A stretch of DNA of 64,000 bases from a virus (Duplodnaviria; Caudoviricetes), in IMG/VR virus record IMGVR_UViG_3300025679_000005. One strand, 5' to 3'. Position 1 is the stretch's first letter; each line of letters begins with the position of its first letter. Below are positions 23,939-57,300 of this stretch, piece after piece. The notes beneath the pieces were generated by a model that saw nothing but the letters and a program-made list of their open reading frames with translations, searched no databases and was not told the DNA's origin. The translations under genes and the position numbers were made by a program.

Positions 23939-25197
23939 CGCATAGCTTTTGCTCAAAAAGCCATTTTGTGCTAAACTTAGCTCGATGATCCGCTCTTACC
24001 GATACCCACTGCACCCCACGAAGAATCAGGAGGCGACTTTGACCTCCTGGCTCCTAGCATGCGGTAGTCTGTACAACGGAGCATTAGAAGAGAAGAAATC
24101 CTCGTGGGCAAAGCTCAAAAAAGGCGTTTCCTGTTACGAGCAGTATAGGTCTCTGACCATCATTCGTTCTCAGGACCCTGAATTCGGAGCGATACCCGCA
24201 ACTATCCTTCGATCTGCTCTCAAACGACTTGAACGATCCTTCGACGGATTCTTCCGTCGCGTGAAATCTGGAGAGGCCCCTGGTTATCCACGGTTTCGTA
24301 GTCAAAAGCGATATGACTCATTCTCATTGATGGGCTGTTTCTATTCTGGAGTCATTGTCGATAAAGCCAGAGGCTCCTCAGCTCAGGTCAAAATCCCCAA
24401 GCTTGGCCTCGTGAAGTTCAACCAGTACCGACCTCACAAGGGTGAGGTCAAAGACATCCTAGTCAAGCGAGAGGCTGATCGATGGTTCGTGATCTTCCAG
24501 TGCGACCTCGGAGCGGCACCCAAGGTCGCGGCCGACCTCACGAAGTCTGTCGGCATTGATCTAGGGCTTACCCACTTCGCAACCCTCGATTCCGGTGAGA
24601 CGATCGAGAACCCTAGGTTCTTCAAGGCCGGACAAGACCTATTGGCTAGGCGGCAGCGTGCTCTAGGGCGTAAGCGCCGGGGCAGTGCCTCTATGAGACG
24701 TGCTAAGATCCTAGTCCAGCGGGCTCACGCTCACATCAAGAACCAGCGCCTAGACCACGCTAGGAAGCTCGCCAAGAGTCTTTTCGATCGCTTCGACGTG
24801 GTCTGCTATGAGGATCTTTCGATCCAGGACATGATCTCCGGACCTCCCAGAGACGGAAAGCCTAAGCTCAATCTAGCCAAATCAATCTCAGACGCTTCCT
24901 GGTCAATTACAATCCACTGCCTAAAATGCAAAGCGGAAGAAGCTGGCAAGATCGCAGTGGGGGTTGATCCAAGAGGAACCACACAGAGGTGTAGTGGGTG
25001 CGGGGAGATCGTCCGTAAGGACCTTTCTATGCGCATTCATGATTGCCCCGCATGTGGTCTCATCATGGATCGTGACCAGAATGCAGGATGTAACATCAAA
25101 GCGCTCGGTTTGAGCGCGGTCTTGGGGATGAAGTCCCAGCCGAAGTTCATAGTCAGGGCAGCTTAAAATGAGCCGTCAAGACTTTTTGGGTAAAACC
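23936..25197 (+). mobile_element. Non-autonomous tnpB-only IS element, copy 1
   Basis: Left and right ends shared with copy 2; preceded by ATGGGC; right end ATGAGCCGTCAAGACTTTTTGGGTAAAACC. Confidence 0.75.
23985..25166 (+). CDS. tnpB: RNA-guided endonuclease TnpB
   Basis: RSYRYPLHPT N-terminus; RuvC GIDLG, YEDL, DRDQNA; zinc finger CSGCG and CPACG. Confidence 0.93.
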   Translation: MIRSYRYPLHPTKNQEATLTSWLLACGSLYNGALEEKKSSWAKLKKGVSCYEQYRSLTIIRSQDPEFGAIPATILRSALKRLERSFDGFFRRVKSGEAPGYPRFRSQKRYDSFSLMGCFYSGVIVDKARGSSAQVKIPKLGLVKFNQYRPHKGEVKDILVKREADRWFVIFQCDLGAAPKVAADLTKSVGIDLGLTHFATLDSGETIENPRFFKAGQDLLARRQRALGRKRRGSASMRRAKILVQRAHAHIKNQRLDHARKLAKSLFDRFDVVCYEDLSIQDMISGPPRDGKPKLNLAKSISDASWSITIHCLKCKAEEAGKIAVGVDPRGTTQRCSGCGEIVRKDLSMRIHDCPACGLIMDRDQNAGCNIKALGLSAVLGMKSQPKFIVRAA

Positions 25198-33872: not shown

Positions 33873-33898
33873 TGTGTAGACTCTCACTGAGTTGAAAC
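33873..33898 (+). promoter_or_regulatory. Array promoter (TGTGTAGACT) followed by an isolated 11-nt repeat handle TGAGTTGAAAC
   Basis: One mismatch to the GGTGTA motif; handle starts 10 nt after the motif A. Confidence 0.55.
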
Positions 33899-33958
33899 CG
33901 GAGGCTCTCGCAAAACCAGTGCCAGGTATTCGTATTCATACGACCAATCTGAATACGT

Positions 33959-36900
33959 CCTCAGAGGCTATTGGCTTCTGAGGTGAATTGAAACGTCTGC
34001 GTAGGTGCTCGTGGCGAGCGTGACCGATTCCGCCTCAGAGGCTATTGGCTTCTGAGGTGAATTGAAACGGGTTGTTCGCAAAACACAGCTAGACCGGCTC
34101 CGCCCCTCAGAGGCTATTGGCTTCTGAGGTGAATTGAAACAAGGAAGTTGAGCGGGACGCGGCCGATACCATGAAGCCTCAGAGGCTATTGGCTTCTGAG
34201 GTGAATTGAAACGTGTCAATCGCATCCAATTGCAGTTGGGCCTTGCTCCCTCAGAGGCTATTGGCTTCTGAGGTGAATTGAAACCGGCTGGATATCGGCC
34301 AATGCCTCGATGTCTCCAATCCTCAGAGGCTATTGGCTTCTGAGGTGAATTGAAACCAGAGCGGGGACACTGTCGCCTCGATTGCTACGGGGCCTCAGAG
34401 GCTATTGGCTTCTGAGGTGAATTGAAACGCCAGCACTACCGATCCAACCGCTTTGACGGTTAGGGCCCTCAGAGGCTATTGGCTTCTGAGGTGAATTGAA
34501 ACTACTGGGTGCGCGATCTTGAGCGCCTCCTAATCCAGCCTCAGAGGCTATTGGCTTCTGAGGTGAATTGAAACCTGGACGGCTATCAGCTCGCTCAAGC
34601 AGACCGAGCCAACCTCAGAGGCTATTGGCTTCTGAGGTGAATTGAAACTCCATGGACACGGCAATGTGTACTTGCCAGCCGTTGCCCCTCAGAGGCTATT
34701 GGCTTCTGAGGTGAATTGAAACCAAACCTATAGCGAGATCACAGCCGCTGTCAGGGCCCCTCAGAGGCTATTGGCTTCTGAGGTGAATTGAAACATCATG
34801 ACCTCTACATCGGGGCCTACAAATCCGTTGCCCCTCAGAGGCTATTGGCTTCTGAGGTGAATTGAAACGTTAGCCGGGGCTTGATTTGGGACGCAATGTC
34901 GGAGCCTCAGAGGCTATTGGCTTCTGAGGTGAATTGAAACAGCGTGAGCTTGTCGGGATGATCTAAGGCCCAACGCCTCAGAGGCTATTGGCTTCTGAGG
35001 TGAATTGAAACGAGACGGAAAGCCGTTTAACGATTTGATCCCCGCTCAGCCTCAGAGGCTATTGGCTTCTGAGGTGAATTGAAACCTACAGTCAGGACTG
35101 ACGTATAGGCGGGCTACCTCGACCTCAGAGGCTATTGGCTTCTGAGGTGAATTGAAACACCATCGAGAGGTTGACCCAGCGGTTTGGCTTGAGCCTCAGA
35201 GGCTATTGGCTTCTGAGGTGAATTGAAACAGGGTGGGGCAGGCGCACACCAGCTGCGTGCGCAGCCTCAGAGGCTATTGGCTTCTGAGGTGAATTGAAAC
35301 CAAAGCCCAAGAAAGCCAAGAGGAAGTAGTGGATTAGCCTCAGAGGCTATTGGCTTCTGAGGTGAATTGAAACGTCTGCAGCTCCTCGATTTTCTCTGAT
35401 GCGATCGATCCTCAGAGGCTATTGGCTTCTGAGGTGAATTGAAACAGGCGGGGAATGCCAAGTTGATCGCGCGGATCCAACCCCCTCAGAGGCTATTGGC
35501 TTCTGAGGTGAATTGAAACCATGGTGGGTTGCTTCGCCGGCCGTATGCTGGGGAGCCTCAGAGGCTATTGGCTTCTGAGGTGAATTGAAACGGGGCGTCA
35601 ACAGGGGACGGAACGAGAGTGAACGATTCCTCAGAGGCTATTGGCTTCTGAGGTGAATTGAAACTTGGTAACGTCGGTCGGCAGCTAGGCCGAACACACG
35701 GAGCCTCAGAGGCTATTGGCTTCTGAGGTGAATTGAAACTTGGCCTTTGAGGTCTTGGCCCTGTGCCTATCTTTGCCTCAGAGGCTATTGGCTTCTGAGG
35801 TGAATTGAAACAGCTACTATTTCCCGCTCTACATCCCAGCGGGCTCGACAGCCTCAGAGGCTATTGGCTTCTGAGGTGAATTGAAACTGGGGGATGCGTT
35901 TGGTCTTGGGCTTGCCCTTGGCATCCTCAGAGGCTATTGGCTTCTGAGGTGAATTGAAACCAAGAAGCGTTTGAACTTGATCGGATCCGCACTGTGCCTC
36001 AGAGGCTATTGGCTTCTGAGGTGAATTGAAACACTTACAACACGTTGCCGGAGACCTGGGAGAGCACCCTCAGAGGCTATTGGCTTCTGAGGTGAATTGA
36101 AACGCGGGGTTTGCGGGGGGCATACCCTCAGCGGCTGACCTCAGAGGCTATTGGCTTCTGAGGTGAATTGAAACCAAGAGCGTCGGGTCATGAATCTGCT
36201 CAAGAAGACATCCTCAGAGGCTATTGGCTTCTGAGGTGAATTGAAACGGCCAGCTTCGGAGCCGCTCTTGGATGTCCTCCGACCAAGCCTCAGAGGCTAT
36301 TGGCTTCTGAGGTGAATTGAAACGCTACGAGGATCCAGGCTAGCTGGCGAATGAACCACCTCAGAGGCTATTGGCTTCTGAGGTGAATTGAAACTAGGGC
36401 AGCCCCTGAGGGGACGGAGCATCCCGTGAGGCCTCAGAGGCTATTGGCTTCTGAGGTGAATTGAAACGCGAACTGCTTGGCCAAGGGAGCGACAGCCTGA
36501 GCGACCCTCAGAGGCTATTGGCTTCTGAGGTGAATTGAAACGAGCTGCAACTGAGCTGCCTGGGATGGCCCAGTAGAGCCTCAGAGGCTATTGGCTTCTG
36601 AGGTGAATTGAAACGACCAACGACCCTCGCCGAAGTGTCGGGACTTCCCGGCCTCAGAGGCTATTGGCTTCTGAGGTGAATTGAAACAGTCCTTGGCGTT
36701 GCCATTCGAGGCAGCCATCGACCCCTCAGAGGCTATTGGCTTCTGAGGTGAATTGAAACATGTAATATAATACGGTATGGAACCTACACACTTAACCTCA
36801 GAGGCTATTTGGCTTCTGATGTGAATTGAAACAAAGACCTCGACACTGGTGGTCGTCGTCGACCCTCAGAGGTCTCTGATCTCTGAGGTGCGTTGAAACG

Positions 36901-39599
36901 ATCGAAAGCGTGAGGTGCTATCAGAGGGTCTATGATCTCTGATCTCTGAGGTGGATTGAAACACACGGATTCGGACCTCATGCTCCGTGTTGACTTCCCT
37001 CAGGGTCATTGATCTCTGAGGTGAATTGAAACCTCCGAATGCTCACGCCGGCAGAGCGTCGTCATGGGGAGCCTCAGAGGTCTCTGATCTCTGAGGTGAA
37101 TTGAAACGAGACGATCCAGGTCGTGGTCGCCACGTGCGGACAAGCCCTCAGAGGTCTCTGATCTCTGAGGTGAATTGAAACGCTCACCTAGTGACCGAGG
37201 AAAAGAAGGTCGATGGCCTCAGAGGTCTCTGATCTCTGAGGTGAATTGAAACGATTCTGCCGCTCCCCCTAAGCGCTCATGTCGAGCGCCTCAGAAGGCT
37301 CTGATCTCTGAGGTGAGTTGAAACGATTCCCGTGTGCCCCGCTACGTCCAATCACGGACGCACCTCAGAGGTCTATGATCTCTGAGGTGAATTGAAACTG
37401 GTAAGAGCCGGTGGCGTATACCTCGAAGTCCGCACTCCTCTGATCTCTGAGGTGAATTGAAACAGGCAGGGGTCACAGAGCTTGCGACCGACCTTGACCT
37501 CAGAGGTCTATGATCTCTGAGGTGAATTGAAACACTTGCTTCGTGGTCATGCCAGGTCGGGGGACACTCAACCTCAGAGGTCTAGGATCTATGATCTCTG
37601 AGGTGAATTGAAACGAATGGGCACGTTGGAATGCACTAAGATGGTTGGCGGCCTCAGAGGCCTATGATCTCTGAAGGTGTATTGAAACAAGGCACTGCGA
37701 GTCTTTGACGCTTCCGCGAAGGCTGTCTCAGAGGTCTATGATCTCTGAGGTGAATTGAAACCTCACGAGCAACAAGAGGCCACGGGCGCAGCCCCGGCCT
37801 CTTTGGTCACTGATCCCGGAGGTGAGTTGAAACTTCAGGAGAACTCAGAGGCTATTGGCTTCTGAGTTGAGTTGAAATTCCTGCTGAATCGTGATGCCTG
37901 TAGCCTAAGTGAGTTGAAACAGCCGTAGCGAATAGCCATGTGAGTAGAGAGGCTACCTGAGGTCAATGATCTCAGAGTGAGTTGAAACGTCGTGATGGAG
38001 CGTGTGCACTCGACGGTCAGAGCCATCCTCTGAGGTCTTTAATCCCCGGAGGTGAATTGAAACGCCAGCGCGACCGTTACGAACGATGCCCGGAGGTCCC
38101 TCTGGGGTCTTTGATCCCGGAGGTGAGTTGAAACACAGACACTCTTGGGCTTTAACATCGTTCCTCAGAGGTCTATGATCTCTGAGGTGAATTGAAACAC
38201 TTCGGAGGCGGCCTTTGGAGGTCACATGTCTACTACCCTCAGAGGTCTATGATCTCTGAGGTGAGTTGAAACAGGGCGGCGCTTCGACAGATGCTCCAAG
38301 ACAACGCACCTCAGAGGTCGTTGATCTCAGAGGTGAATTGAAACGGAGTCTGCTGAAGCAGATCGTCAATAGCGATCTTGGTGCCTCAGAGGTCTCTGAT
38401 CTCTGAGGTGAGTTGAAACACGTGGAGCGGCAGGCCAGCTAGGCTTCTCCGGATCCCTCAGAGGTCTCTGATCCCTGAGGTGAATTGAAACCAGGTACGG
38501 CCAACGTACCCCTTGGCGTGGGACTTCTGAGGTCTCTGATCTTAGAAGTGAATTGAAACATGAAGCCCAGCTCGTCCAGCGCCTTGATGTGCGGGGCCTC
38601 AGAGGTTCTGAGGTGAGTTGAAACGACTCCATCAGTGGACGCTGCGTCCACGCCGGATCCTCTGTGGTGTCATTGATCTCAGAGGTGGATTGAAACCAGG
38701 CCGCTCAGCGGTGTACCTATAGAGGTCTGAGGTCGGGGATCTCGTGAATTGAAACCTGAGCCAACCTCGTTGGACTGCTGGGTATCGAAGGCTTCTGAGA
38801 TCAATGATCTCAGAAGTGAGTTGAAACGCGAGCTGCTCTCACCGTGTCTGACAACCCCGCGGATCCTCTGGCTCACAGAGGTGAGTTGAAACATCAGAAC
38901 TGGCCTGCGAAGGTCGAAGGTCGTCTAGTCCTCTGGGGTCATTGATCCTGGAGGTGAGTTGAAACGTCTGGTCGGAACCCTATAGTGATCGTCAGAATTG
39001 GCCTCCAGGGTCTTTGGATCCTGGAGGTGAGTTGAAACATCGACGACGGCCCGGGAATGCTACCAGATGGCAACCTCAGAGGTCTCTGATCTCTGAGGTG
39101 AATTGAAACGCCGTGGTGGGCGCGTAGTCGCCAGCCTTGATCAAACCTCAGTGGTCTCTGATCTCTGAGGTGGATTGAAACGTTGGGGTGCGATGGGCTG
39201 CATCGGTCCTCAGAGGTCTATGATCTCTGAGGTGAATTGAAACCTCTGAGCTGAGCCGTACGGGTGCAAACCGATCCACTCCTCAGAGGTCTATGATCTC
39301 TGAGGTGAATTGAAACGCGGGTCAGGAATCCGTAGAACAAGCGCTCCAGGAGCGGCCTCAGAGGTCTCTGAGGTGAATTGAAACAACGGTCTGGTGTGGG
39401 ACTGCAAACCGCGGGTGGCTGCCTCAGAGGTCTCTGATCTCTGAGGTGAATTGAAACGTGAGCGAACACAAAGTGCTCTCAACCGCGACCGAACACCTCA
39501 GAGGTCTAGGATCTCTGAGGTGAATTGAAACAGAGGTAGTCGGCAGAGAAGATAGAATTCGGCTTCAGGGCCGACTTTCTTCCTGAAGTGTATTGAAAT
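33959..39599 (+). CRISPR. Type I-C-like CRISPR array, about 80 repeats: 40 near-identical (33959-36832) then about 40 degenerate (36864-39599)
   Basis: 36-nt repeat CCTCAGAGGCTATTGGCTTCTGAGGTGAATTGAAAC (hairpin plus 11-nt tail); distal consensus CCTCAGAGGTCT(C/A)TGATCTCTGAGGTGA(A/G)TTGAAAC; spacers mostly 34-40 nt. Confidence 0.98.
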
Positions 39600-39620: not shown

Positions 39621-39646
39621 GTACCGGGAGGGCCTCCTCCCGGTAC
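39621..39646. terminator. GC-rich hairpin at the array 3' end
   Basis: GTACCGGGAGG-GCCT-CCTCCCGGTAC, 11-bp stem; no downstream U-tract on plus. Confidence 0.5.
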
Positions 39647-39710: not shown

Positions 39711-40352
39711 ATGGTCGAAATCAAAAGCAAAATGTACAACATCGAGATGCGAGGCCGCTTGGCCTGCTTCACAGCCGTCGAATCGAAGATCGAGCGGGTC
39801 TCGTACCCCATCCCCACCCCCTCAGCAGTAGAGGGCGCCTTGAGTGGCGTCATGGGGAAGCACGAGATCCAATGGCACTTGTCCCAGTGCCGCGTGCTCT
39901 CCAAGATCAGGCATACGCCCGTTCGTCGCAATGAGCTGAAGGAGTTCGGCAACAATCCTGTCTACATTGAGAACAACCGCGCCCAACGCACCACCCTGTA
40001 CCTGAAGGACGTGCACTACGTGTTCTCGGTCTTCATGACGATTCGGCCCGATGCCTTCACCAGGGACATCGTCAAGTACGAGTCCATGTTCGAACGTCGC
40101 ATGGAAGGCGGGCAGTTCGAATACTACCCGTATTTCGGCTTACGGGAACTCGCGGTCAGTCGTTACGCTTTGGTGGACGACCTGAGCCAGTTCACGCCTA
40201 TCCCGTTCTCACAGAACTTCGGTCGGATGTTCTACGGCCACCAGTATCGTGATCGTCGAGTCGTTTCCAGTAAGTTCTGGGAAGCCAAAATCGTCAGAGG
40301 CATCGTCAACTACCCATCGCGAGATGAGATCTTCGGAGAAATTGAAACATGA
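39711..40352 (+). CDS. cas5: Type I-C Cas5 (Cas5d)
   Basis: ACFT...KIERVSYPIPTPSA, RRNE, LKDVHY, MFERR..GGQ...PYFGLRE. Confidence 0.92.
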   Translation: MVEIKSKMYNIEMRGRLACFTAVESKIERVSYPIPTPSAVEGALSGVMGKHEIQWHLSQCRVLSKIRHTPVRRNELKEFGNNPVYIENNRAQRTTLYLKDVHYVFSVFMTIRPDAFTRDIVKYESMFERRMEGGQFEYYPYFGLRELAVSRYALVDDLSQFTPIPFSQNFGRMFYGHQYRDRRVVSSKFWEAKIVRGIVNYPSRDEIFGEIET

Positions 40353-42154
40353 GCCAGTTACTCAGCAGCCTATACAGTTACGCGGTGGCCCACTCTCTAG
40401 AGGCTCCGTCAGAAGAGCGCGACTTCCCGCTCAAGTTGGTCTTGAACGAGAGCGGCTTCGTTGGCCTGGAGATCCTGAACCAGGCACTATGCGTTCCACC
40501 ACAAGTCATGATGAGAGGTAACAAGACGAAGCCAAATTTGGGCTACGACAATATCAGCTACGTTTTGGGCATTGGCCTCGTAGAACGAGCAGAGCGCTTC
40601 CCAGCGTTCTGGAAGCACACAATCGAGCAGTTGACCCGGGCCGGGGCACCGGAAGGAGTCCTCACCGCTGTCAAAGCTTTCCAAGACACGCGGGAATCGT
40701 GGAGGGAAGCGGCCCTGGCCTGCACCAGAGCATTTACCGAGGCGGACCCGAAGTTGGTGTTCGAGGGCGGGGAGTGGGTTGTCATTGAAGTTCAAGGCCA
40801 CGGCTATCTGCACAATACTCCAGGTCTTAGGCAAGACATCGAAAATATTGATGTCTTCGAGACAACGGGGATTTGTGCCGTATCGGGAGTTGCCTGTAAC
40901 CCCACACGATTGCATCCCGCCATCAAAGGGGTGCTAAAGGATGCAGTACCACTGGTCTCTTACAACGGCACTGCATACGAATTTGAAGGTCTCGAACAAG
41001 GGGCTAACTTTCCCACCAGTGCGACCGTAGCCCAAGGGTACACGAACGCCCTGAACGACTTGCTGTTCTATGTCCCCGATCGCCCGGGGCGTCGCAAGAA
41101 CGGGATCAATCTTCCCAGTGGTGCCGTTCTGGTGCTGTGGTCCAACGACCCAGAGGTGGATGTACAGCCTCTCATTGATGTCCTGTACGCCTCCAACAAC
41201 AAGGAGGACCGCGAGGTCGTGTCCAGGACTTGGGCCGCTTTTGAAGCCCTCAAGGAGTCTGAGGCAGAGGTCCACGTCTTGCTACTAGTCGGATACAGGG
41301 GTCGGATCTCCATCAATCGTTGGACGACTGTCTCCCTCACGGAGCTGCTGGTCAACCTGCGTAGCTATCGTCAAGCCTTCGCCAAGTTCTCGGAGTTCCC
41401 CAGCATGTACGAGCTGCTGGAGAACCTCAGCTCGGAAAAGCCTCAGATGGAGAATCCGAAGAAATACCTGCCGAAGCAAATTCTGTCGGAGACCCTTAAG
41501 AGTTCCCTCTACGAGGCCGTACTGTTCGGGGAACCCATTCCAAAGTCTGTCTACCAGTACGCTGTCAACCGCATGGTGCGGAGCAACCCCAACTCATACC
41601 CCTCCGAGCACGGATGGTTCCGCCAAATGGCGATCCTAAATGCTTGGATCAGCTTGAATCAACAACAAAAGGACACAATGACTGAGCCCACAAATTCTGA
41701 CGGCCCCCAGGGCCCGCAACGTTGCAACTACATTCCGAAGGACGCCTCCCCTGCTTTTCATGAGGGGCGCTTCCTGGCATGCGCCGAAGAGTATCAGTAC
41801 ATCTATGCCGGCCAAAAACCTGGCACCACAGCAAAAGTCGGCACGCCATTTGGCAGCAAGCTGAGTGAATTCTCGACAAATACTACCCGTTCAAAAGTGG
41901 CCATCCAAAGTGTACTCGTGATTTTCCAGAGAGGGTGCTCTGGACCCAGCGCCAATGTGGTCAGGGAAGAGCTGGATGATGTGACGTTTCACCTGGCTCT
42001 GCATCAGACCCCTGGCCGGGCCACCCCCAAACAACGCCAGGACATCTGTCAAGGCTACTTCAGCGAAAAACTCTACCTTAAGGATCGCAAGGGGTACCGT
42101 GCCCCGCTTCCCCCCACAACTGATGGAGACGAGAACACCTCGTCATCCGTTTGA
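40349..42154 (+). CDS. cas8c: Type I-C Cas8c (Csd1), short variant
   Basis: LHPAIKGV...LVSYN...QGANFP...Y.NALNDLL; GRISI; C-terminal F..GRFLA..E..Q; position between cas5 and cas7. Confidence 0.82.
   Translation: MSQLLSSLYSYAVAHSLEAPSEERDFPLKLVLNESGFVGLEILNQALCVPPQVMMRGNKTKPNLGYDNISYVLGIGLVERAERFPAFWKHTIEQLTRAGAPEGVLTAVKAFQDTRESWREAALACTRAFTEADPKLVFEGGEWVVIEVQGHGYLHNTPGLRQDIENIDVFETTGICAVSGVACNPTRLHPAIKGVLKDAVPLVSYNGTAYEFEGLEQGANFPTSATVAQGYTNALNDLLFYVPDRPGRRKNGINLPSGAVLVLWSNDPEVDVQPLIDVLYASNNKEDREVVSRTWAAFEALKESEAEVHVLLLVGYRGRISINRWTTVSLTELLVNLRSYRQAFAKFSEFPSMYELLENLSSEKPQMENPKKYLPKQILSETLKSSLYEAVLFGEPIPKSVYQYAVNRMVRSNPNSYPSEHGWFRQMAILNAWISLNQQQKDTMTEPTNSDGPQGPQRCNYIPKDASPAFHEGRFLACAEEYQYIYAGQKPGTTAKVGTPFGSKLSEFSTNTTRSKVAIQSVLVIFQRGCSGPSANVVREELDDVTFHLALHQTPGRATPKQRQDICQGYFSEKLYLKDRKGYRAPLPPTTDGDENTSSSV
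41678..42154 (+). CDS. Probable internally translated Cas11 (small subunit) within cas8c
   Basis: In-frame ATG with upstream AAGGA just before the AFHEGRFLA domain. Confidence 0.55.
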   Translation: MTEPTNSDGPQGPQRCNYIPKDASPAFHEGRFLACAEEYQYIYAGQKPGTTAKVGTPFGSKLSEFSTNTTRSKVAIQSVLVIFQRGCSGPSANVVREELDDVTFHLALHQTPGRATPKQRQDICQGYFSEKLYLKDRKGYRAPLPPTTDGDENTSSSV

Positions 42155-42183
42155 TCGACTCTCAAAACACAAATAGGAACAAA

Positions 42184-43131
42184 ATGGCACCGAAAAAAGC
42201 TACTGCTGCTGCAATTCTCGAAACCCCGTCCAACACAGCTGTCGAGAAATCCCACTCCGACACCGTGGTCGATCGTCGCATCGACATCTTCATCGTGTGG
42301 GACATCACCGCAGGGTCTCCTCAAGGGGATCCTGCTCAACTCAACAACCGTCCTCGTGAGGACATCGACACCGGCAACGGCATGTTCACGGATGCTGGCT
42401 GGAAACGCCACATCCGTGACTACATCATGATGGCCTACGAGGGCAAGGAAGGTCTGGACATCCACATCCGTCAGAAAGCGATCTTGTCAGAGGGCGTTCT
42501 CGATGCCCAAACCAAGCTCGGGATCAAGCCCGCGGATGCCCAGAAAGACGCAAATCAAACTCGTGTCCGCGACGCCATGTGCAAAAGCTACTTCGATGTC
42601 CGAGCATTCGGCGAAGTTGTAGCCCACAGCACCGCCACCAACTCCGGCAAGATCACTGGCCCTGTCCAGTTCACGCACTTCTGGAGCCAAGATCCCTTGG
42701 ACACCATGGAGATCAAGGGGACCCGCGTGGCGGTCGCCAACCAAGAGCGCTCGGACAGCATGGCCGGGTTCAACCAGGACTTCAGCATCAAGTACGTGGT
42801 CCCGTACGCCCTGTTCCACGGAAACGGCTTCGTGTCCCCCTTCTGGGCCAAGAAGACGGGATTCACCTGGGGCGACTACGAAGTGCTGATCGAAGCCATG
42901 AAGAACCTGTTCGAGAATCGTCGAACATCTTCGAGCGGGCTTCGGACTACCCGAAAGATCATCGCTTTCGAGCACAGCACCCACTTGGGCTGCGCTCCGG
43001 CGGCCGATCTCTTCGATCTGGTCAAGATCGTCAAGAAGAACCCCGACAAGCCGGCTCGTGCCTACTCGGATTACGAGATCACGATCGACGAGGCGAATCT
43101 GCCTGCCGGTGTAACCGTCAAGGTGTACTGA
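42184..43131 (+). CDS. cas7: Type I-C Cas7 (Csd2)
   Basis: PQGDP...N.PR.D, TDAGWKRHIRDY, YFDVRAFG, GPVQF, VVPYALF, AKKTGFT. Confidence 0.93.
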   Translation: MAPKKATAAAILETPSNTAVEKSHSDTVVDRRIDIFIVWDITAGSPQGDPAQLNNRPREDIDTGNGMFTDAGWKRHIRDYIMMAYEGKEGLDIHIRQKAILSEGVLDAQTKLGIKPADAQKDANQTRVRDAMCKSYFDVRAFGEVVAHSTATNSGKITGPVQFTHFWSQDPLDTMEIKGTRVAVANQERSDSMAGFNQDFSIKYVVPYALFHGNGFVSPFWAKKTGFTWGDYEVLIEAMKNLFENRRTSSSGLRTTRKIIAFEHSTHLGCAPAADLFDLVKIVKKNPDKPARAYSDYEITIDEANLPAGVTVKVY

Positions 43132-43209: not shown

Positions 43210-45588
43210 ATGACTCGCTGTCTACCGTCTCGACACCAGCCCTCCGTGGGTGCGGTGCCTTTTTGTCTGCATACTCGATACTATCAGCCAGATGTCTTCA
43301 AGGAGCTGACAGAGCTAGTGCCCTCAGAGCCACAGGTGGCATTGCTGTTGCCTACAGGCAGCGGTAAGACAACGCTGATTCTGTCTTTCATCGCCTGGGT
43401 GTTCGAGCAGCCAAAGCCACCTTTCTCCGAAGTCTACGTCATCGCCCCTCAGAAGACCGTCCGCGATGGCTTCAAAGGCAATAAGGGGGAGAACCGTCAA
43501 TTCCAAGTCAATCCAGGAGAGGCCTGCTATGAGCTTGTGTCCGCAGAGGATCTGGATTCGAGGACTTCTCTGGACGAAACGGGGGATCTCGATACCAAGC
43601 TTTTAGAAGTGCCCAAACCTGGAACAAAAGTGTGGTTCGCAGAGACTCATGCCAAATTCGCACTTGAGAAGCTGCTCTGCAACTTGCAGAACCACTGCTG
43701 TACTGCTGACTTCCACGGCAAGCTATTGGTGGTGGATGAGGGGCACCACGCCAAGCTGGGCAACAACATCCGAGCCTTCATCGACTATTGGGTGGCCAAT
43801 GGTGGGCACGTACTGTACGCCACTGCCACTCCGGGAGACGGTATCCCTGAGACCGCCAAACTGATCCAACGCACTCTCACTGAGCTAATGGCGCCGCCAT
43901 ACGACCTCCCGCCGTGTGCCCCCACAAGGATCCTATCTAATTTCATCGATACGGGGTTGGCGGAGGACTCCGAGCAAGACGCTGATGGGACTCATTGTGC
44001 TCCTATCGGGACTGAGGCCGAGTTGCGCAATGTCTTCGAGGACATGGCCACTCGCTGGAATGACGCTGGTCGTCCCAAGACTATTGTCCGGATCAAGCCT
44101 AAGCAAGACACTCAGCACAACATCAAAATGCTTCTTATGGCCAAAAAAGCCTTTGAGGACGTAGGTGCGAGAGCTTTTGCCGTCAGAGCTGATGTCAACT
44201 TGAAAACAGGATCCGAAATCAAACGCATTGACGGCTTGATTTCCTCCGAGGACCTCTCAGAAAAGCTGGCTAAGGAGCGCCGTCGGTCGTATTCAGAATC
44301 CGAGTGCGACGTGATCATCACGCTCAACACAATGATTGAAGGTGCCGATTGGCCCCTTTGCAGTCATGTCTACTTGTGGGGCGTGCCCGGCAACTGTCAG
44401 ACCACTGTTCAGGTACTGGGGCGAGCCACTCGTCTAAGGACCGGTATCTCAGACTACCCGCAGCAATGGTGCGAGACCACTCAGATCGTGTTCTTTGTGG
44501 GTGGTGTCTCTGATCTTCGTAATACCCACGGCACTACCATGCTTTTGGTAGGGTGCTCACTAGCTAACTACACTCTAGGTGCTCAATGGTCTACGTTCCG
44601 AGAGCATTTGAAGCTGGTCAAGGAACACCCACAGATCTTGGAACCAGCTCGTGAAGAGGCAACGGCGGTCCCCGCGGAACGTGAGAGAGAGATCAGACTG
44701 GGTATTTCGGGGCTGTCAAAAACCATTGAAAAGTTCCAAAATACCAAGGAAAGGGTGGAGAACTCCGAAGTTCACGAGAGGCGCAAACGGATAATCGAGA
44801 AGCATCTGTCCACTCTTCCAGACGGACCCGAGCGCCGATTTGGCATAAGCTTTGCCCTAGGGGAGTATCCTGGGTATCAAGAGAAATACCGCAAAGCATT
44901 GAGGGGACGCCTTCAAACGGAGAGCTTCAGCGAGGCCCATAAGGCTGTCCTGGATGAACTCCTGGAGCACTTCCTGAACTCAACTGAGGTGCTCCCTAGA
45001 GCGGGGTCCCTAATGGACCTGGAGGATATGGGACTACTCCAGTTGACTGCCCCTGTTCTTGAGGGATTGAAGGACAAGATGCTTAAGGAGTGTCCTCCTA
45101 GGTTGTACCGGAGTAAAGTCATTAACAACACTCAGAGCTTCGTTATCTCGAATCCACACCTGTCCATTTCAGAATTGCTGGATCAACCGGACCCCGCAAG
45201 CCCTGACGGGTACACCTTCAGGGCATACGACGAGGCCATTCGAGCTGGCTCACGTGGCCTGGAGAGGCACGATGACGGCCTAGGCGGTATGGTCTGTGAG
45301 CGAAGCTCGTGGTCCAAGGAATGGGTGACATCAGCTCATCTGGACCAGCTAAAGGGTGGGACTAGTCAAAAGAGGTTCGCTTCAGAGTTTAAGAAACACC
45401 CTTTGGGGTTCTTTTTCGGGCCTCCTATCACCAATCTCCTGAAGGGTCTACCCTTGGATGTCTGTGCCCGTCTGACTGTCGGCGAAGCGGTCCGCATTGG
45501 TCGTTCAGAATGGACTAAGGAGCAATACGCCTCCTTTAAGGGCCGTCTTCAGCACATGACTGTGCAGGAGGCGCTAGATGGCGTCTAA
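43210..45588 (+). CDS. SF2 helicase with no HD nuclease domain
   Basis: LPTGSGKT, VVDEGHH, TATP, MIEGADWP, QVLGRATR; Walker A is only about 45 aa from the start. Confidence 0.85.
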   Translation: MTRCLPSRHQPSVGAVPFCLHTRYYQPDVFKELTELVPSEPQVALLLPTGSGKTTLILSFIAWVFEQPKPPFSEVYVIAPQKTVRDGFKGNKGENRQFQVNPGEACYELVSAEDLDSRTSLDETGDLDTKLLEVPKPGTKVWFAETHAKFALEKLLCNLQNHCCTADFHGKLLVVDEGHHAKLGNNIRAFIDYWVANGGHVLYATATPGDGIPETAKLIQRTLTELMAPPYDLPPCAPTRILSNFIDTGLAEDSEQDADGTHCAPIGTEAELRNVFEDMATRWNDAGRPKTIVRIKPKQDTQHNIKMLLMAKKAFEDVGARAFAVRADVNLKTGSEIKRIDGLISSEDLSEKLAKERRRSYSESECDVIITLNTMIEGADWPLCSHVYLWGVPGNCQTTVQVLGRATRLRTGISDYPQQWCETTQIVFFVGGVSDLRNTHGTTMLLVGCSLANYTLGAQWSTFREHLKLVKEHPQILEPAREEATAVPAEREREIRLGISGLSKTIEKFQNTKERVENSEVHERRKRIIEKHLSTLPDGPERRFGISFALGEYPGYQEKYRKALRGRLQTESFSEAHKAVLDELLEHFLNSTEVLPRAGSLMDLEDMGLLQLTAPVLEGLKDKMLKECPPRLYRSKVINNTQSFVISNPHLSISELLDQPDPASPDGYTFRAYDEAIRAGSRGLERHDDGLGGMVCERSSWSKEWVTSAHLDQLKGGTSQKRFASEFKKHPLGFFFGPPITNLLKGLPLDVCARLTVGEAVRIGRSEWTKEQYASFKGRLQHMTVQEALDGV

Positions 45589-51726: not shown

Positions 51727-53148
51727 TCAGGGAGTCGTATCTTCGGCGTTTGAGGCTGTGCCAGTACTCTTTGCAGAGATTGCCCTGGTAGTAAGCCTAC
51801 GGCTAGAAGCTGCTAGCTCGGTAGTAGACCTTCCTGAGGAACTGTCCCCGGCCCGAAGGGCTAGGTATCGCTGACTCAGGAGGGTTTTCACTTCGGAGGG
51901 ATGATCATAGATCCCAATCTCTTTGTCCTCGGAACGTCCGAGCAGATTGCGACCTCCTACCACATCCGCATGAGAAATCCTGCCGCACCCACGGCATTGA
52001 AACTTGATCCCACTTCTGTTGGATCGTGAAACGTAGCCACAGGATGGGCACATCTGAGAAGTGTATGCCGGATTCACAACAATGACCGGAGCCTTGGTGG
52101 CTAACGACTTGTGCAGAGCCTTATAAGCGAATCGCTTTTGCCCCTTACAACCCCTGAGATCCAAGTCCTCGATGACGAACGCATGTCCTGGGTAGTCTCT
52201 AACGAGCGAGTTGGCAACGAACCCTGTGCTTGTTTTGATGAGACCGCTGAGGTGCTCTTCCAAGCGATCTAGGCGAGGAGAATTGATCCTCAATCCCTGA
52301 CGTTGCCTATTGGCTCTGAGGGTTTTGACCTTGGCATAAAGGGTATCGAACTTGGGCTTCAGATCAGCTCCGTAGATTCGACCGGCCGACGTAGCCGCGA
52401 TCACGTTGAGGCCGACATCCACTCCTACGCGAGGTGCTGACAGGTCAAGCTTAGGCTCCTCAATTAGCTTCTTCTCAAGGACTTCGACTCGCCATCGGCC
52501 CCGGCGGTCTTTGCGGATCATACAGCCATTGACGATCTCGTCAGGGGATTTGACGTGAGGGTTGGCGACGATCGGGACTTGGATCCTACGACCCTTCTTG
52601 AGATTGGAGAAGCCCAGCCACCAGGCACTGATTTTGGTATCATCGATCTTGCGGATGGCACTAGTATGCACCGAAAGGCGTATTCCAATTCGATCAGAGA
52701 TCGTGGGGGTCTTACCTACTAGGTCCTTGTCAAGAAGGAACGACCAGTACTGATCGAGAACTTCCTGAGAGATCAGGTCAGTGGCATGGTCGTAACTGTA
52801 TTTTCCGATAGTGAGAAGGGCGATTTTGGTCGATTCGGTGATCAAGCCCTCCTTAGCCAATCCCTTGATGTGTCGCTTGAGCTTCCTGACGTAGGTGGTT
52901 GTAACCCAAGCTGAAACAATCTCGATGGCATGCTGCTGGCAAGCCATTACAATGTTAGTGGAAAGAACCCTCTCCCTGGGAAAGAACCTGAGAAGTTCTC
53001 CTCTAGGAATCCCCATCCTCATGGACGAGATCATAGCTTCGACGCAAGCCTGGAGATACAGAAGGTATTCTACGTGAAGGGCTTCGAGCGCACGGATCTT
53101 CCCTGGGTTTGCTTGGGGGTGAAAGAAAAGGACTCGTGAGCGTTTCAC
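51727..53148 (-). CDS. tnpB: Divergent, longer TnpB/Cas12f-like RuvC nuclease
   Basis: GVDVG, IEDL, NPAYTSQMCPSCG, CRGCG..HADVVGGRNL. Confidence 0.85.
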   Translation of the reverse strand: MKRSRVLFFHPQANPGKIRALEALHVEYLLYLQACVEAMISSMRMGIPRGELLRFFPRERVLSTNIVMACQQHAIEIVSAWVTTTYVRKLKRHIKGLAKEGLITESTKIALLTIGKYSYDHATDLISQEVLDQYWSFLLDKDLVGKTPTISDRIGIRLSVHTSAIRKIDDTKISAWWLGFSNLKKGRRIQVPIVANPHVKSPDEIVNGCMIRKDRRGRWRVEVLEKKLIEEPKLDLSAPRVGVDVGLNVIAATSAGRIYGADLKPKFDTLYAKVKTLRANRQRQGLRINSPRLDRLEEHLSGLIKTSTGFVANSLVRDYPGHAFVIEDLDLRGCKGQKRFAYKALHKSLATKAPVIVVNPAYTSQMCPSCGYVSRSNRSGIKFQCRGCGRISHADVVGGRNLLGRSEDKEIGIYDHPSEVKTLLSQRYLALRAGDSSSGRSTTELAASSRRLTTRAISAKSTGTASNAEDTTP

Positions 53149-54307: not shown

Positions 54308-57300
54308 TCAGTCATCATCATTGATCAGAGCCCACAGCTGCCGACCAATGCTCATCCCCGACAGATGTTGGCTCCCCACACCCGCCGAGGCCAGCATGCT
54401 CTCATTGTCGAGCCCGTCAGTCGATATCGAGATCTCGACTTTACGCATGAGCAACTCGTACATCTGCTCTTGTAGGGTGTCCTTGAAGACAGCGAAGTGG
54501 ATGCGGGTGTCCTTCTTCTGACCAATACGGTCTACTCGACCGACTGCCTGCCGGAACATGATCGGGCTACACATCGGGTTCTCCATCCACAATTCTGTGG
54601 AGAAGTGGACCAACGAATTCAAACCCGTGCTCACGGAGGCGGGGTTGACAATCAATACCCGGGAATTCTTCTTGACTACGTGCTGCTCTATCCACGTTTG
54701 GCGCTTACTCGTGGGGACGCGGTCAGCATAAAGGATCGGGGCCTTCACCCCTAGGCGCTCCTCAATGAGGCGGGCAATCCTAGGAAGCAACGTCGTGTGC
54801 CAAGCAAAGACCATGGCATTGCGACCCTCGGCCAGTTCCGCCTTGAGGGTGTCGAGCATCCACTGCTCCTTGGCAGAGACCTCGGAAGCTGAGAACTGCT
54901 TACCAGTCGCCACGATCCCAGCGCCCACGGACTCGGGATACCGGATCTCGTAGGTCCCGTCATCGTTATTGCCAGTGTCCGCCGTTGATCGATCCAAGTA
55001 GCTGGGCAGCTCTGACAGCTGGCCGAACAGCTTCCCCGACAGGTCCGGATCGAAGCGATCCTTCTTGATCTGATCCCTCAATGAGGCCAGAAGGGATTTG
55101 TAGCTGCCCAGTAGCTCGGAATCAGCTTCCACCACATGCTTCGTGACAGTGCAGGGCGGGATGTCAATGGCTAGGTCTGCCTTGTGCAAGGTCACAGACA
55201 CGGGCAGGAGGTGCCGGAACAAGAACAGGGGGAGAATGCCAGGGGCATCTCCGGCTGTGCGTTCGCTTCGCTGCACACGATCGGACATGGCCCCGAAGGC
55301 TACGACCTCCCCAGACTCCTTATCCTTGTCAGAAATGATTCGCTTCCGGTAGCCGTAGCGGTCAATGAACCGTTGGGCATCTTCCCTGGCGAACTCATGC
55401 CGGAAGTCCGGAGACAGCGCCCACATGTTCGTGTACAAGGACTTCGCGTAGCCGTTCATGACAGAGCCGGTCATGAACAGGGTGGGGATACCAAGGCCGG
55501 TTAGAGAATGGTAGGCTTGCGATTGAGCTGAGTCCGCATTAGCTGCCTCATGGCTTTCGTCTAAGCATATGAAGTCAAACAGATTCGGAGAGTATTTGGC
55601 GATGTGCTTCGCCAACGCCACTCGACGGGGTTCGGGTACCGCCTGGAACAAAGCCTCTCCGCATTCTGGGGTCAAGTAGATCTTACCACAAGCAATAAGC
55701 CCCGTAAGGATGGCCTCAGCAAGGTCTAGACTGTTGGCCTCCTTGGCATCTAGGGTCAAAACCCCGTCAGTCCACTTGAGCATCCCCAAATGGGTGTTGT
55801 GACCGTAGGACCTGGCCGCCTTGTAGTACATGTCCCAGCTCTGCCAATTGCTGGTCTCAAATAGTCCGGTCAGCTCCTTTTGGAGTTCCGTTCCCTCTTC
55901 AAGCAGGTAAACCAGGTTCTTCGCCATGTCCTTGATGTAGTATTCCTGGTGTTGGGACAGGATCCGAACATAGCGAGCAATTCGAGCAGGGTCGTAGGCG
56001 GCCATCAACAGCTTGGCGAACAGCTTGGGCAGCTCACCTTCGTTGGTCGAGTTGAGCATCATCTTGGCGAACACGAGATCGGTCATGTGCTCGACGTTGG
56101 CTGGCTGGAACACCCACTCGGGGCGTTCGTCTTTCGGAACCAGTGCGTTCTTGTCGAGGATCCTGTTCAAGTGCACCGTCCTCAGAATGCCCCGAAGGCG
56201 ATGACTCTCAGGGAGGTGCTCTAGAAGCTGCAAGCCGAACGAGTAGGCGGCTAGGCCCAGATCATCCTTGATCGAAATGTCTCTGTTCTCGCAACGAAGG
56301 CGCTTCTTGACGGCATCTTCCTTGGGCAGCTCACCGCCACACTTCGGGCAGCTCTTGGTAACGGCTTCCCAGCCATGGCCTAGCTTGGCCGTTTCCCGGG
56401 ACAGAATCGCCACCAGAAAGCGTTCCGCTGGAATGTCAGCCAATGCCTCGATGTCTCCAATGTCCTTCAAGACCCGCACCTCAGCGTCAGGAAACGTGGC
56501 CGAGGTCTCATTGGTCCAAGAGGTCAGAAGATGAGGCGGGCAAAGGACAAGCATTCTCTTGGCGATTGTCCTAGCGACCGTTAGTGCCAGGCAGCTCTTA
56601 CCACTGCCGATTTCGCCCAAAAGCTGGGCAGATCGATACTTTCTGTCCTTGGCCTTGTTCCCACCCAAAAGCATCACCAACGCCTTGGCTGAGTGCTCCT
56701 GAGCTTTGAAGAGTTTTCTCGCCGTTGGGGCCAAGGTCACCGAGTCCGCATCCCGCTTGGGATCGTACATGACAGGGCACTGTTGCTGCATAACCCCCAT
56801 GAGGCTAGGCCCGTAGTGCTTGAGCAAGTCCTCAATGGTCATTTTCTCGACATCGAGGACTTTCGACTCCCCACCGGATCCCAGGGTCGTGTACTTTTTG
56901 GTACTCAAGTCCAAGATCGTCGTAATCAGCTTCGGCTGCTGAACCTGAACAACCGAGGTCACATCCCCGTCCTTGTTTTTCTTCTCCTCGACGGTGACGA
57001 ACTCCCGATCGAACACTCCCTTGACCAAGAGGTCGGGGAGGCCTTCGGTTTCTGAAGATACCCGGCGACCATTGAACAGCCCTGAGGCGATCCCCGCGGC
57101 AATGTGGGCGGGCCTAGGGGGCGTAGCCAACTTGTACGTCCGGAACATCAGCTCTTCTACGGGAAGCTCAGGGATGATGTGAGGCACCGGGACGTAAGAG
57201 CCCAGGCGATTGCTTTGGGTCCAAGGACGAACCTTCTTCAATAGCCCAATGCGGTCGAAGGCCCGCATGCCCCAATCGGTCGTGTAGACGTTGCTCTGCG

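What the first reader, a model, noticed from the sequence alone, without database searches (positions are those of the whole stretch)
36864..39599. Distal repeats diverge but keep the hairpin through compensatory changes and arm swaps
Seen: after repeat 40 the loop changes abruptly to a second family, and many copies carry paired substitutions. Examples: CCTCCAGG/CCTGGAGG (39002), CTTCTGAGATCA/TGATCTCAGAAG (38792, a perfect 12-bp stem with arms reversed relative to consensus), CCTCTGGGGTC/GATCCCGGAGG (38099) and terminal CTTCAGG/CCTGAAG (39563). The TTGAAA(C) tail is kept throughout. One proximal-type repeat is embedded at about 37844. Inference: either long-term selection to keep old crRNAs processable by structure, or template-switch mutagenesis within the palindrome. 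The two blocks may be fused arrays of different origin.
Basis: partly seen in the sequence, partly recalled or inferred. Interest (0 to 1): 0.7.

Follow-up and report, generated by a model that had tools for sequence, protein, structure and literature searches.

The report
Phage CRISPR array with covarying repeats
The older half of an 80-repeat CRISPR array on a probable huge phage is a patchwork of non-identical repeats that still fold into the same RNA hairpin and keep the same 11-base handle; this natural record shows what a type I-C guide-RNA cutting enzyme needs, and a related phage shows it too.

Summary
The array (33959-39599, + strand) has 39 identical repeats plus one degenerate copy, then 40 repeats of a second family. 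All quoted variants sit at the quoted coordinates.

Stem-preserving changes far exceed chance. Pairing is 96% against 89% in shuffles (0/500). Only 7 pairs are broken, against 23-26 expected from 36 random substitutions. Three assemblies and about 100x contigs of a peat run reproduce every letter, so it is not an assembly error.

The "arm swap" is one base-pair flip (A5-U21 to U5-A21) in an arm that is nearly its own palindrome.

The evidence favours RNA-level selection for a Cas5c-processable hairpin:
- G-U intermediates occur.
- The transcribed strand folds better.
- The handle is invariant.

Template switching alone does not fit. The variants are linked haplotypes that recur at non-adjacent positions, so they were copied, and the distal block looks like a mosaic. 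Donor arrays were not found.

The proximal repeat family is also the first repeat of a diverged relative, which supports two origins. Another relative has a 17-repeat array with no two repeats alike.

This scan's earlier notes report the same pattern on other DNA, in type I-E arrays of giant phages. I found no paper describing it.

The parts
33888..33898 (+). r1: 11-nt handle (TGAGTTGAAAC) with no hairpin, just upstream of the leader core
33900..33915 (+). Leader motif GGAGGCTCTCGCAAAA. It ends about 43 nt before the first repeat. The same motif lies upstream of the arrays of relatives L010, L011 and L013.
33959..36759 (+). Proximal block: 39 identical 36-nt repeats (r2-r40) with spacers of 35-40 nt
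36796..36832 (+). r41: last, degenerate repeat of the proximal family (one inserted T, one G-to-T change in the 3' arm)
36864..39599 (+). Distal block: 40 repeats (r42-r81) of the second family. 28 distinct stem-loops; 12 of 40 spacers are shorter than 35 nt.
37843..37878 (+). r56: proximal-type repeat embedded in the distal block. Pair 1 is C-G changed to A-U on both sides. The tail ends in T. Only 9 nt separate it from r55.
37908..37920 (+). r57: remnant that keeps only the handle
38027..38063 (+). r59: candidate chimeric repeat. Its 5' arm is of the type of its upstream neighbour r58 and its 3' arm of the type of its downstream neighbour r60, which leaves an A-C mismatch.
   Evidence: inspection
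38099..38134 (+). r60: variant with U5-G21, G6-C20 and G7-C19, all paired
38524..38559 (+). r66: variant with U2-A24, U5-A21 and G6-U20, all paired
38792..38827 (+). r70: variant with U2-A24, U5-A21 and A9-U17, a perfect 11-bp stem
38930..38965 (+). r72: variant with G6-U20, the intermediate between r60 and r73
39002..39038 (+). r73: variant with C5-G21, A6-U20 and G7-C19, plus one extra G in the loop
39563..39599 (+). r81: terminal repeat with a 7-bp stem (CTTCAGG/CCTGAAG), a 12-nt loop and a tail ending in T
39621..39646 (+). 11-bp GC-rich hairpin between the array and cas5
   Evidence: read from the sequence
39711..40352 (+). cas5c (Cas5d family), the presumed pre-crRNA endonuclease
40349..42154 (+). 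cas8c (Csd1), scoring below the curated cut-off
42151..43131 (+). cas7c (Csd2)
43210..45588 (+). SF2 helicase (ResIII and Helicase_C domains) in the place of Cas3, with no Cas3 family match

Best explanation
This is the guide-RNA array of a Cas3-less, Cas1/Cas2-less type I-C variant system on a probable huge phage.

How it works:
- It is transcribed on the + strand from the leader at about 33.9 kb.
- Each repeat folds into a hairpin.
- The enzyme and Cascade read the handle and the four basal pairs (CCUC/GAGG) by sequence. They read the upper stem only by shape. So pairs 5-7 and the loop are free to change as long as pairing is kept.

How it arose:
- The array is composite.
- The young, homogeneous proximal block was built by repeated copying of one repeat during spacer integration. 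The integrating machinery is type I-C like (TTC PAM) and must come from outside the window, probably from the host.
- The old distal block is a patchwork of at least three repeat lineages: the consensus, a GGAGG-type lineage and a U5-A21/U2-A24 lineage.
- Each lineage acquired its compensated stem changes under RNA-level selection. Each was itself copied several times. Recombination within repeats, or internal insertion, then interleaved them.
- The distal block is also eroding in place through small deletions and duplications.

Shown here: the array anatomy, the covariation, the linkage of variant sites, the invariant handle, TTC PAMs for spacers of both blocks, and recurrence in a relative.

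Inferred: cleavage by Cas5c, trans-acting adaptation, and recombination as the mixing process.
For: System:
- cas5c, cas8c and cas7c lie next to the array. No cas1, cas2, cas3 or cas4 was detected among the ORFs scanned near the array. Not every ORF of the window was scanned.
- This layout was published for two huge phages (PMC7162821).

Structure under selection:
- 96.2% of cells are paired against 88.9% in shuffles; 5 pairs changed on both sides.
- 7 unpaired pairs against 23-26 expected under random mutation.
- The consensus helix is confirmed by RNAalifold.
- The r60, r72, r73 series runs G-C, G-U, A-U at pair 6.
- The + strand hairpin is more stable than the - strand one in 23 of 25 stem-loops, P=3e-5.
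- Tail positions 26, 27 and 30-35 show 0 changes in 40 repeats. Stem levels 1-4 are almost fixed, while levels 5-7 vary.
- This matches published Cas5c specificity: the cut site, stem base and 3' overhang matter and the loop does not; the handle is 11 nt (PMC8524198).

Variants were copied, not hit independently:
- Differences per repeat are overdispersed (index 3.7, P=1.5e-9).
- Stem variants are linked to tail G29 (P=0.003) and to loop variants (P=0.007).
- The same double changes recur at non-adjacent repeats. U5-A21 is in r58, r66, r68, r70 and r71. The C19+G21 state is in r55, r59, r60, r72 and r73 (and inspection).
- Divergent repeats cluster along the array (runs test P=0.02-0.03).

Two origins:
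- A relative, L013, has nearly the proximal repeat as its first repeat, and the leader motif is shared.

Function of both blocks:
- Contigs of the same peat sample carry protospacers for the spacers after r20, r45 and r69. Each is preceded by TT plus C, that is a TTC PAM.

Erosion in place:
- 12 of 40 distal spacers are shorter than 35 nt, against 0 of 39 proximal ones (P=0.0002).

Generality:
- In L011, all 17 repeats differ. In 12 hairpins, 90.6% of cells are paired against 72% in shuffles (0/5000).
Against: - No array with any of the variant repeats as its main repeat was found in viral, genome or metagenome collections. The donor arrays are therefore hypothetical.
- Similarity between neighbouring repeats, measured by plain edit distance, is not significant (P=0.10).
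- The variable G-U versus A-C count is small (6 against 2).
- Much of the strand asymmetry comes from one inherited G9-U17 wobble.
- The three assemblies may rest on the same reads.
- There are no RNA data.
- In this Cas5 the catalytic Lys is kept, but the Tyr and His of the published triad are replaced (also noted in PMC7162821). Processing is therefore assumed, not shown.
- The L011 hairpins were chosen and anchored by eye, which favours pairing.
Confidence: 0.6

Rival explanations
1. Pure in-place divergence. The distal block is one old array that stopped being homogenised, because the phage has no integrase of its own. Each repeat has since drifted independently under purifying selection for the hairpin and handle. 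Nothing was imported or mixed.
For: - In relative L011 all 17 repeats differ while their hairpins are kept.
- Indels and truncated spacers show real erosion in place.
- No donor arrays were found.
Against: - The same two-sided changes recur in 4-5 non-adjacent repeats.
- Repeats with 6-9 differences sit next to repeats with none; the dispersion test gives P=1.5e-9.
- Stem, loop and tail variants are linked as haplotypes.
- The spacer next to one of the most divergent repeats (r70) still matches a PAM-flanked target at 90% or more over about 31 nt.
Confidence: 0.2
2. A mutational mechanism without selection. Template switching, slippage or gene conversion inside the quasi-palindrome writes complementary changes into both arms. 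Hairpins are then preserved as a by-product.
For: - The arms are at once inverted repeats and near-direct repeats: CTCAGAG against CTCTGAG.
- Slippage products are present. There are 7-nt duplications in r43 and r52, and 7-9-nt deletions in r50, r67 and r78.
- The half-flipped state r63 (A5-A21) exists.
Against: - It cannot make T-G wobble states such as U5-G21, which is shared by several repeats, or G6-U20.
- It cannot explain the linked change at tail position 29, outside the palindrome.
- It does not account for the strand asymmetry or the unchanged handle.
- It needs a first mutation before it can copy anything.
Confidence: 0.1
3. Assembly or sequencing artefact in a repetitive region.
For: Arrays often break or collapse in short-read assemblies. 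Contigs of relatives do end at their first repeats.
Against: - Two differently made assemblies are identical over the whole array, and a third over its last units.
- k-mer contigs of a peat run tile the distal block at about 100x, the same depth as the flanks, with no differing letters.
- Heterogeneous repeats are easier to assemble than identical ones.
Confidence: 0.02

Closest known systems
Helicase-associated type I-C variant CRISPR-Cas of CasPhi-bearing huge phages (Al-Shayeb et al. 2020, PMC7162821)
   Same: - Cas5d-like Cas5, Cas8c and Cas7.
- No Cas1 or Cas2 nearby.
- An SF2 helicase in the place of Cas3.
- A contig of about 464 kb.
- Altered Cas5 active-site residues, also noted in that paper.
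   Different: - In the text searched, that paper says nothing about repeat heterogeneity or covariation within the array.
- It reports compact phage arrays (median 6 repeats). This array has 80.
Canonical type I-C arrays processed by Cas5c (B. halodurans, S. mutans, D. vulgaris; PMC8524198)
   Same: - A stem-loop followed by an 11-nt 3' tail ending in AUUGAAAC. Three distal repeats carry the tail TGGATTGAAAC; from my own knowledge this is the canonical type I-C handle UGGAUUGAAAC.
- A TTC PAM.
- The conserved and variable positions match the published tolerance: stem base and overhang matter, the loop does not.
   Different: - The stem is longer (11 bp against 7) and the repeat is 36 nt.
- Canonical arrays have essentially identical repeats. 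Internal repeat mutations run at about 4 per 1000 nt in 857 type I-C arrays (PMC12839519). Here they run at about 63-130 per 1000 nt in the distal block.
Compensatory base changes between CRISPR repeat families of different genomes (Kunin et al. 2007, PMC1896005; CRISPRmap, PMC3783184)
   Same: The same signature of a conserved RNA stem: changes on both sides, G-U pairs and a conserved GAAAC end.
   Different: [quoted passage not shown] Here the covariation is recorded inside one array.
Trailer-end repeat degeneration and its link to spacer retention (PMC12839519; SpacerPlacer, PMC11472070)
   Same: - Mutated repeats concentrate away from the leader.
- The terminal repeat r81 is the most aberrant.
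- The literature suggests that mutated repeats reduce misalignment deletions.
   Different: Half the array is affected, not only the last repeat. The changes preserve structure and are shared between repeats.
All-different-repeat type I-E arrays in other giant phages
   Same: Phage arrays without adaptation genes, in which nearly every repeat differs but the hairpin is kept.
   Different: - Those are type I-E with Cas6e. This one is type I-C with Cas5c.
- Here a homogeneous young block sits in front of the heterogeneous one.

Membership tests
Type I-C CRISPR-Cas (array and effector) | cas5c, cas8c and cas7c genes next to the array | tested here: met
   NCBIfam Cas5c 98 bits (cut-off 85) and Cas7/Csd2 226 bits (cut-off 182). 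Cas8c/Csd1 scores 139 bits, below its cut-off of 219.
Type I-C CRISPR-Cas (array and effector) | Repeat made of a stem-loop plus an 11-nt 3' tail ending in ATTGAAAC | tested here: met
   A 25-nt stem-loop plus TGA(A/G)TTGAAAC in both families. Tail positions 26-27 and 30-35 are invariant in 40 of 40 distal repeats.
Type I-C CRISPR-Cas (array and effector) | 5'-TTC PAM next to protospacers | tested here: met
   Three protospacer-bearing contigs in the peat run each read TT before a matched C, for the spacers starting at 35230, 37108 and 38756. This is only three cases.
Type I-C CRISPR-Cas (array and effector) | Cas3 HD nuclease-helicase | tested here: not met
   The 792-aa neighbour matches only ResIII and Helicase_C, with no Cas3 family hit. 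This is therefore a variant, not a canonical type I-C system.
Type I-C CRISPR-Cas (array and effector) | cas1, cas2 and cas4 adaptation genes | tested here: not met
   None detected among the ORFs scanned near the array; other ORFs of the window were not scanned. The rest of the genome could not be searched because no genome is held.
Type I-C CRISPR-Cas (array and effector) | Cas5c catalytic triad Tyr-Lys-His | tested here: inconclusive
   The alignment to solved Cas5c chains keeps the Lys (VKY). The His position holds Tyr and the Tyr position is not conserved. Published work says only the Lys is invariant (PMC8524198).
Type I-C CRISPR-Cas (array and effector) | [quoted passage not shown] | not testable with these tools
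   No RNA run holds the locus (one search returned one DNA run).
Helicase-associated type I-C variant of huge phages (Al-Shayeb 2020) | No Cas1 or Cas2, a helicase instead of Cas3, and a Cas5d-like Cas5 | tested here: met
   The text of PMC7162821 was read.
Helicase-associated type I-C variant of huge phages (Al-Shayeb 2020) | Resides on a huge phage that also encodes CasPhi | not tested
   A contig length of 464-466 kb was seen. CasPhi is reported only by earlier scan notes. PHROG hits in the window are weak.
Ordinary trailer-end repeat decay | Mutations confined to the last repeat or two and random with respect to structure | tested here: not met
   40 repeats are affected and the changes preserve structure.
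Quasi-palindrome template-switch mutation | Changes confined to the palindrome that give perfect DNA complements | tested here: not met
   T-G wobble states occur, and there is a linked change at tail position 29.
RNA anti-CRISPR / solitary repeat decoys | Repeats without working guides and without the element's own effector | tested here: not met
   Spacers are mostly full length, some have PAM-flanked targets, and the element's own Cascade genes are adjacent.

The most novel reading that the evidence does not exclude
In phages that carry Cascade but no integrase, arrays are kept as fixed sets of individually maintained guide genes. Repeat divergence is favoured, or simply survives, because non-identical repeats cannot recombine and delete spacers that the phage cannot re-acquire.

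Cas5c (and Cas6e in the type I-E cases noted earlier by this scan) would need only the stem base and the handle. Such arrays would then be natural counterparts of engineered non-repetitive arrays, and a general trait of huge-phage CRISPR systems.
Probability: 0.3. Interest if true: 0.75.

Novelty: new variant of a known kind. Interest (0 to 1): 0.55.

Why it matters
- It gives a natural mutational scan of a type I-C repeat. There are 28 distinct stem-loops in one array and 12 or more in a relative, all apparently tolerated. They separate what is read by sequence (handle positions 26-27 and 30-35, and the four basal pairs) from what is read by shape (pairs 5-7 and the loop).
- That could be tested in vitro and could help in designing stable, non-repetitive multiplex arrays for type I-C tools.
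- It shows how arrays evolve when the element has no integrase of its own: there is little homogenisation, repeat lineages persist for a long time, and units become mixed.
- Spacers of both blocks have TTC-flanked targets in the same peat sample. The old block therefore looks like working memory, not junk.
- Together with the earlier scan notes on type I-E giant-phage arrays, this suggests a general rule for phage-borne CRISPR arrays. I could not find that rule described in the literature.

Tried and rejected
- **Repeat searches.** Exact-pattern scans for the distal variants, the proximal repeat and a two-tail pattern found only single chance matches or unrelated repeats. I ran them on viral contigs, genome contigs and metagenome contigs.
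- **Cas7 loci.** A Cas7-based locus search in viral contigs found nothing.
- **Phage records.** The GenBank phage collection has no similar DNA.
- **Whole genome.** It is not held, so cas1 and cas2 could not be sought genome-wide.
- **More relatives.** The 260-aa accessory protein alone found only itself. As a profile it found only the five known lineages. All extra contigs of one lineage stop at the first repeat.
- **Targets.** PAM plus seed of two spacers found nothing in viral contigs. Spacer BLAST against the window and the relatives gave only the already noted partial self-match of spacer 34285-34320 to 56439-56461. Target classes of the two blocks could therefore not be compared beyond PAM and GC content (0.59 against 0.60).
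- **r57 as an internal leader.** The flanks of r57 are no more similar to the real leader than shuffled sequence (P=0.26 and 0.70).
- **Similarity of neighbouring repeats.** By edit distance this is not significant (P=0.10). Only the cruder runs test is.
- **G-U against A-C.** The count among variable cells is 6 against 2, too few to test.
- **Internal promoter.** The promoter scan gave no more hits than shuffles and did not flag the AT-rich spacer at 36760-36795.
- **Sequencing runs.** Only one run holds the stretch, kept as contigs, so rare deletion variants and RNA ends could not be seen.

Full report
**What is there.**

The stretch is the distal half of one long CRISPR array on the + strand. 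I parsed units by their TTGAAA tail and found 81 tails with no gap longer than 81 nt.
- r1 (33888-33898) is a bare 11-nt handle in the leader.
- r2-r40 are 39 identical 36-nt repeats.
- r41 is a degenerate copy of that family.
- r42-r81 (36864-39599) belong to a second family.

Both families share one architecture: a 25-nt stem-loop (11 pairs, 3-nt loop) followed by an 11-nt tail, TGAATTGAAAC. They are identical in the first 9 and last 18 nt and differ at most of the central 9 positions.

Downstream lie cas5c (39711-40352), cas8c, cas7c and an SF2 helicase with no Cas3 signature. No cas1, cas2, cas3 or cas4 was detected among the ORFs I scanned around the array. This layout was published for two huge phages that also carry CasPhi (PMC7162821). 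The protein look-up places this gene on contigs of 464-466 kb.

**Checking the observation.**

Covariation is strong:
- On 19 distinct ungapped repeats, the 11-pair helix has 96.2% of cells paired against 88.9% in shuffles (0/500). Five pairs changed on both sides against a mean of 2.0 (1/500). Sliding the partner by one to three columns drops pairing to 35-52%.
- RNAalifold predicts the same helix.
- In a direct random-mutation null, the 36 stem substitutions of the 11 variant haplotypes leave 7 unpaired pairs, while random placement gives 23-26 (none of 20,000 trials as low). Keeping only one haplotype per lineage still gives P=0.0003-0.0006.

The second criterion, assembly error, also fails:
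- An ENA contig and a JGI contig are identical to the window across the whole array. A Logan contig is identical over the array's last units and the cas genes.
- The k-mer contigs of a 2016 peat run tile the distal block at about 95-105x, the depth of the flanks, with no differing letter.
- These data sets may share reads, so this is independence of assembler, not of sample.

- r70 is a 25-nt palindrome with one central base, so the RNA stem is 11 bp, not 12.
- The 'reversed arms' reduce to one flipped pair, A5-U21 to U5-A21. The arm core CTCAGAG is its own reverse complement except at its centre.

**What the variation looks like.**

- The handle is essentially frozen. Positions 26, 27 and 30-35 are unchanged in all 40 distal repeats, even in units that have lost the hairpin (r50, r57, r69). 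Positions 28 and 29 vary.
- The four basal pairs are almost fixed. Pairs 5-7 carry most of the changes, and the loop is free.
- This is the pattern expected from published Cas5c biochemistry. [quoted passage not shown] Recognition centres on the cut site, the stem base and the 3' overhang, and loop changes are tolerated (PMC8524198).
- Repeats r60, r72 and r73 form a textbook path at pair 6, from G-C through G-U to A-U. At pair 5 the series runs between C-G and U-G.
- The + strand hairpin is more stable than its reverse complement in 23 of 25 distinct stem-loops that differ (P=3e-5). Part of this comes from one inherited G-U pair.

Together these points argue that the constraint acts on the RNA of the transcribed strand.

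**Selection or mutational mechanism.**

Template switching inside a quasi-palindrome could write complementary changes without selection. Slippage is clearly active here: there are 7-nt duplications in r43 and r52, and deletions of 7-9 nt in r50, r67 and r78.

It does not explain three things:
- the T-G states shared by several repeats;
- the frozen handle;
- the association of stem variants with a change outside the palindrome, G at tail position 29 (Fisher P=0.003), and with loop variants (P=0.007).

I therefore rate it as a minor contributor.

**In place or imported.**

- Differences per repeat are strongly overdispersed (index 3.7, P=1.5e-9). Repeats with 6-9 differences lie next to repeats with none.
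- The same two-sided changes recur at non-adjacent positions. U5-A21 is in r58, r66, r68, r70 and r71. The C19+G21 state is in r55, r59, r60, r72 and r73. U2-A24 is in r66, r70 and r81 (and inspection).
- Independent recurrence of identical double transversions is implausible, so these variants were copied. The known copying process is duplication of a repeat at spacer integration. Gene conversion is the alternative.
- Along the array the states alternate (consensus, GGAGG type, flip type, consensus, and so on). A single leader-proximal repeat changing over time cannot produce that.
- Hence the distal block is best read as a mosaic of at least three repeat lineages, mixed by recombination within repeats or by internal insertions.
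- r59 looks like a junction. Its 5' arm matches the type of its upstream neighbour and its 3' arm the type of its downstream neighbour, which leaves a mismatch.
- Divergent repeats cluster (runs test P=0.02-0.03), but plain neighbour similarity is not significant (P=0.10).
- I found no array elsewhere with these variants as its main repeat. The mosaic reading therefore rests on internal evidence only.

Erosion in place is also real. Twelve of 40 distal spacers are shorter than 35 nt, against none of 39 proximal ones (P=0.0002).

**Two blocks, two origins.**

- The proximal family ends with its own degenerate repeat, r41.
- An old proximal-type copy, r56, lies inside the distal block. It has four differences, including a compensated C-G to A-U at pair 1, and its tail ends in T like the terminal repeat.
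- A relative whose Cas5 is only 61% identical (L013 and sister contigs) has almost the same sequence as its first repeat, behind the same leader motif.

The proximal family is therefore an old lineage of this phage clade, not a recent mutant of the distal one. An internal leader remnant at r57 could not be shown.

**Are the old units still in use.**

In the peat run, contigs carrying protospacers overlap the spacers that start at 35230 (proximal block), 37108 and 38756 (distal block). In each case the letters before the match end in TT and the match begins with C, which gives the type I-C PAM TTC. The spacer at 38756 lies next to r70, one of the most divergent repeats.

Both blocks were therefore filled by a type I-C like integrase, which the window does not encode, and distal guides still have targets in the sample. 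I could not identify the targets.

**Generality.**

Only five lineages of this system exist in the 5.8-billion-protein collection.
- L010 starts with at least 8 identical repeats.
- The L013 lineage breaks assembly at its first repeat.
- L011/L012 have a complete 17-repeat array in which no two repeats are alike (mean stem-loop identity 68%). Twelve of the repeats keep a hairpin of 6 or more bp next to the handle. Pairing over eight levels is 90.6% against 72% in shuffles (0/5000), and seven of the eight levels show two-sided changes. I chose and anchored those hairpins by eye, which favours pairing.

Earlier notes of this scan report all-different-repeat arrays in other giant phages with type I-E systems. 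I did not test those.

For scale, 857 type I-C arrays average about 4 internal repeat mutations per 1000 nt and 55 per 1000 nt in terminal repeats (PMC12839519). The distal block here has 63 per 1000 nt counting substitutions in ungapped repeats, and 130 per 1000 nt counting indels too.

**What is known and what is new.**

Already in the literature:
- compensatory changes in CRISPR repeats between genomes (PMC1896005);
- degenerate trailer repeats;
- the Cas3-less phage type I-C variant.

My searches did not find a description of either of these:
- arrays whose repeats covary within the array;
- the link between this pattern and phage systems that lack adaptation genes.

One paper suggests that repeat mutations may help to retain spacers by preventing misalignment deletions (PMC12839519). 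That fits the more speculative reading, in which divergent repeats persist because they protect guides that cannot be replaced.

**Verdict.**

- Selection for an RNA hairpin is well supported.
- Template switching is not supported as the main cause.
- A composite origin is likely but not proven.

The feature is a new variant of a known kind, of moderate interest.

Noticed in passing
L011:9360-10420 (same array in L012:7710-8765): A relative with 61% identical Cas5 has a 17-repeat array downstream of its helicase cassette. No two repeats are identical, but most keep a hairpin and the TTGAAAC handle. The last units are shortened (43-47 nt).
   Followed up: partly
window 35229-35264, 37107-37145, 38755-38786: Contigs of the same peat run carry protospacers for these three spacers, each preceded by a TTC PAM. 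The targets themselves were not identified.
   Followed up: partly
window 36760-36795: The oldest spacer of the proximal block is AT-rich (GC 0.31 against a block mean of 0.59) and contains TAATATAAT. It may be something other than an ordinary spacer, such as a promoter or a junction remnant. The simple promoter scan did not flag it.
   Followed up: partly
window 33900-33915; L010:11700-11780; L011:9300-9330; L013 last 90 nt: A leader motif (GGAGGC-N-CTCGCAAA) lies about 43 nt upstream of the first repeat in all four lineages. This holds although the array sits upstream of cas5 in the window and downstream of the helicase cassette in the relatives.
   Followed up: partly
window 33888-33898: An 11-nt crRNA handle with no hairpin lies 60 nt before the first repeat, inside the leader.
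   Followed up: no
window 39621-39646: A perfect 11-bp GC-rich hairpin with a 4-nt loop lies between the last repeat and cas5. No T-run follows it.
   Followed up: no
window 34285-34320 and 56439-56461: The 3' 23 nt of this spacer match exactly inside the large helicase-like gene of the same window (54308-57988, - strand).
   Followed up: partly
window 23949-25166, 51727-53148, 62463-63677: One TnpB-family gene (first ORF, NCBIfam) and two ORFs matching PHROG transposase families flank the CRISPR region.
   Followed up: no
window 39711-40352: This Cas5 keeps the invariant catalytic Lys (VKY). It has Tyr where solved Cas5c proteins have His, and no Tyr at the first triad position.
   Followed up: partly
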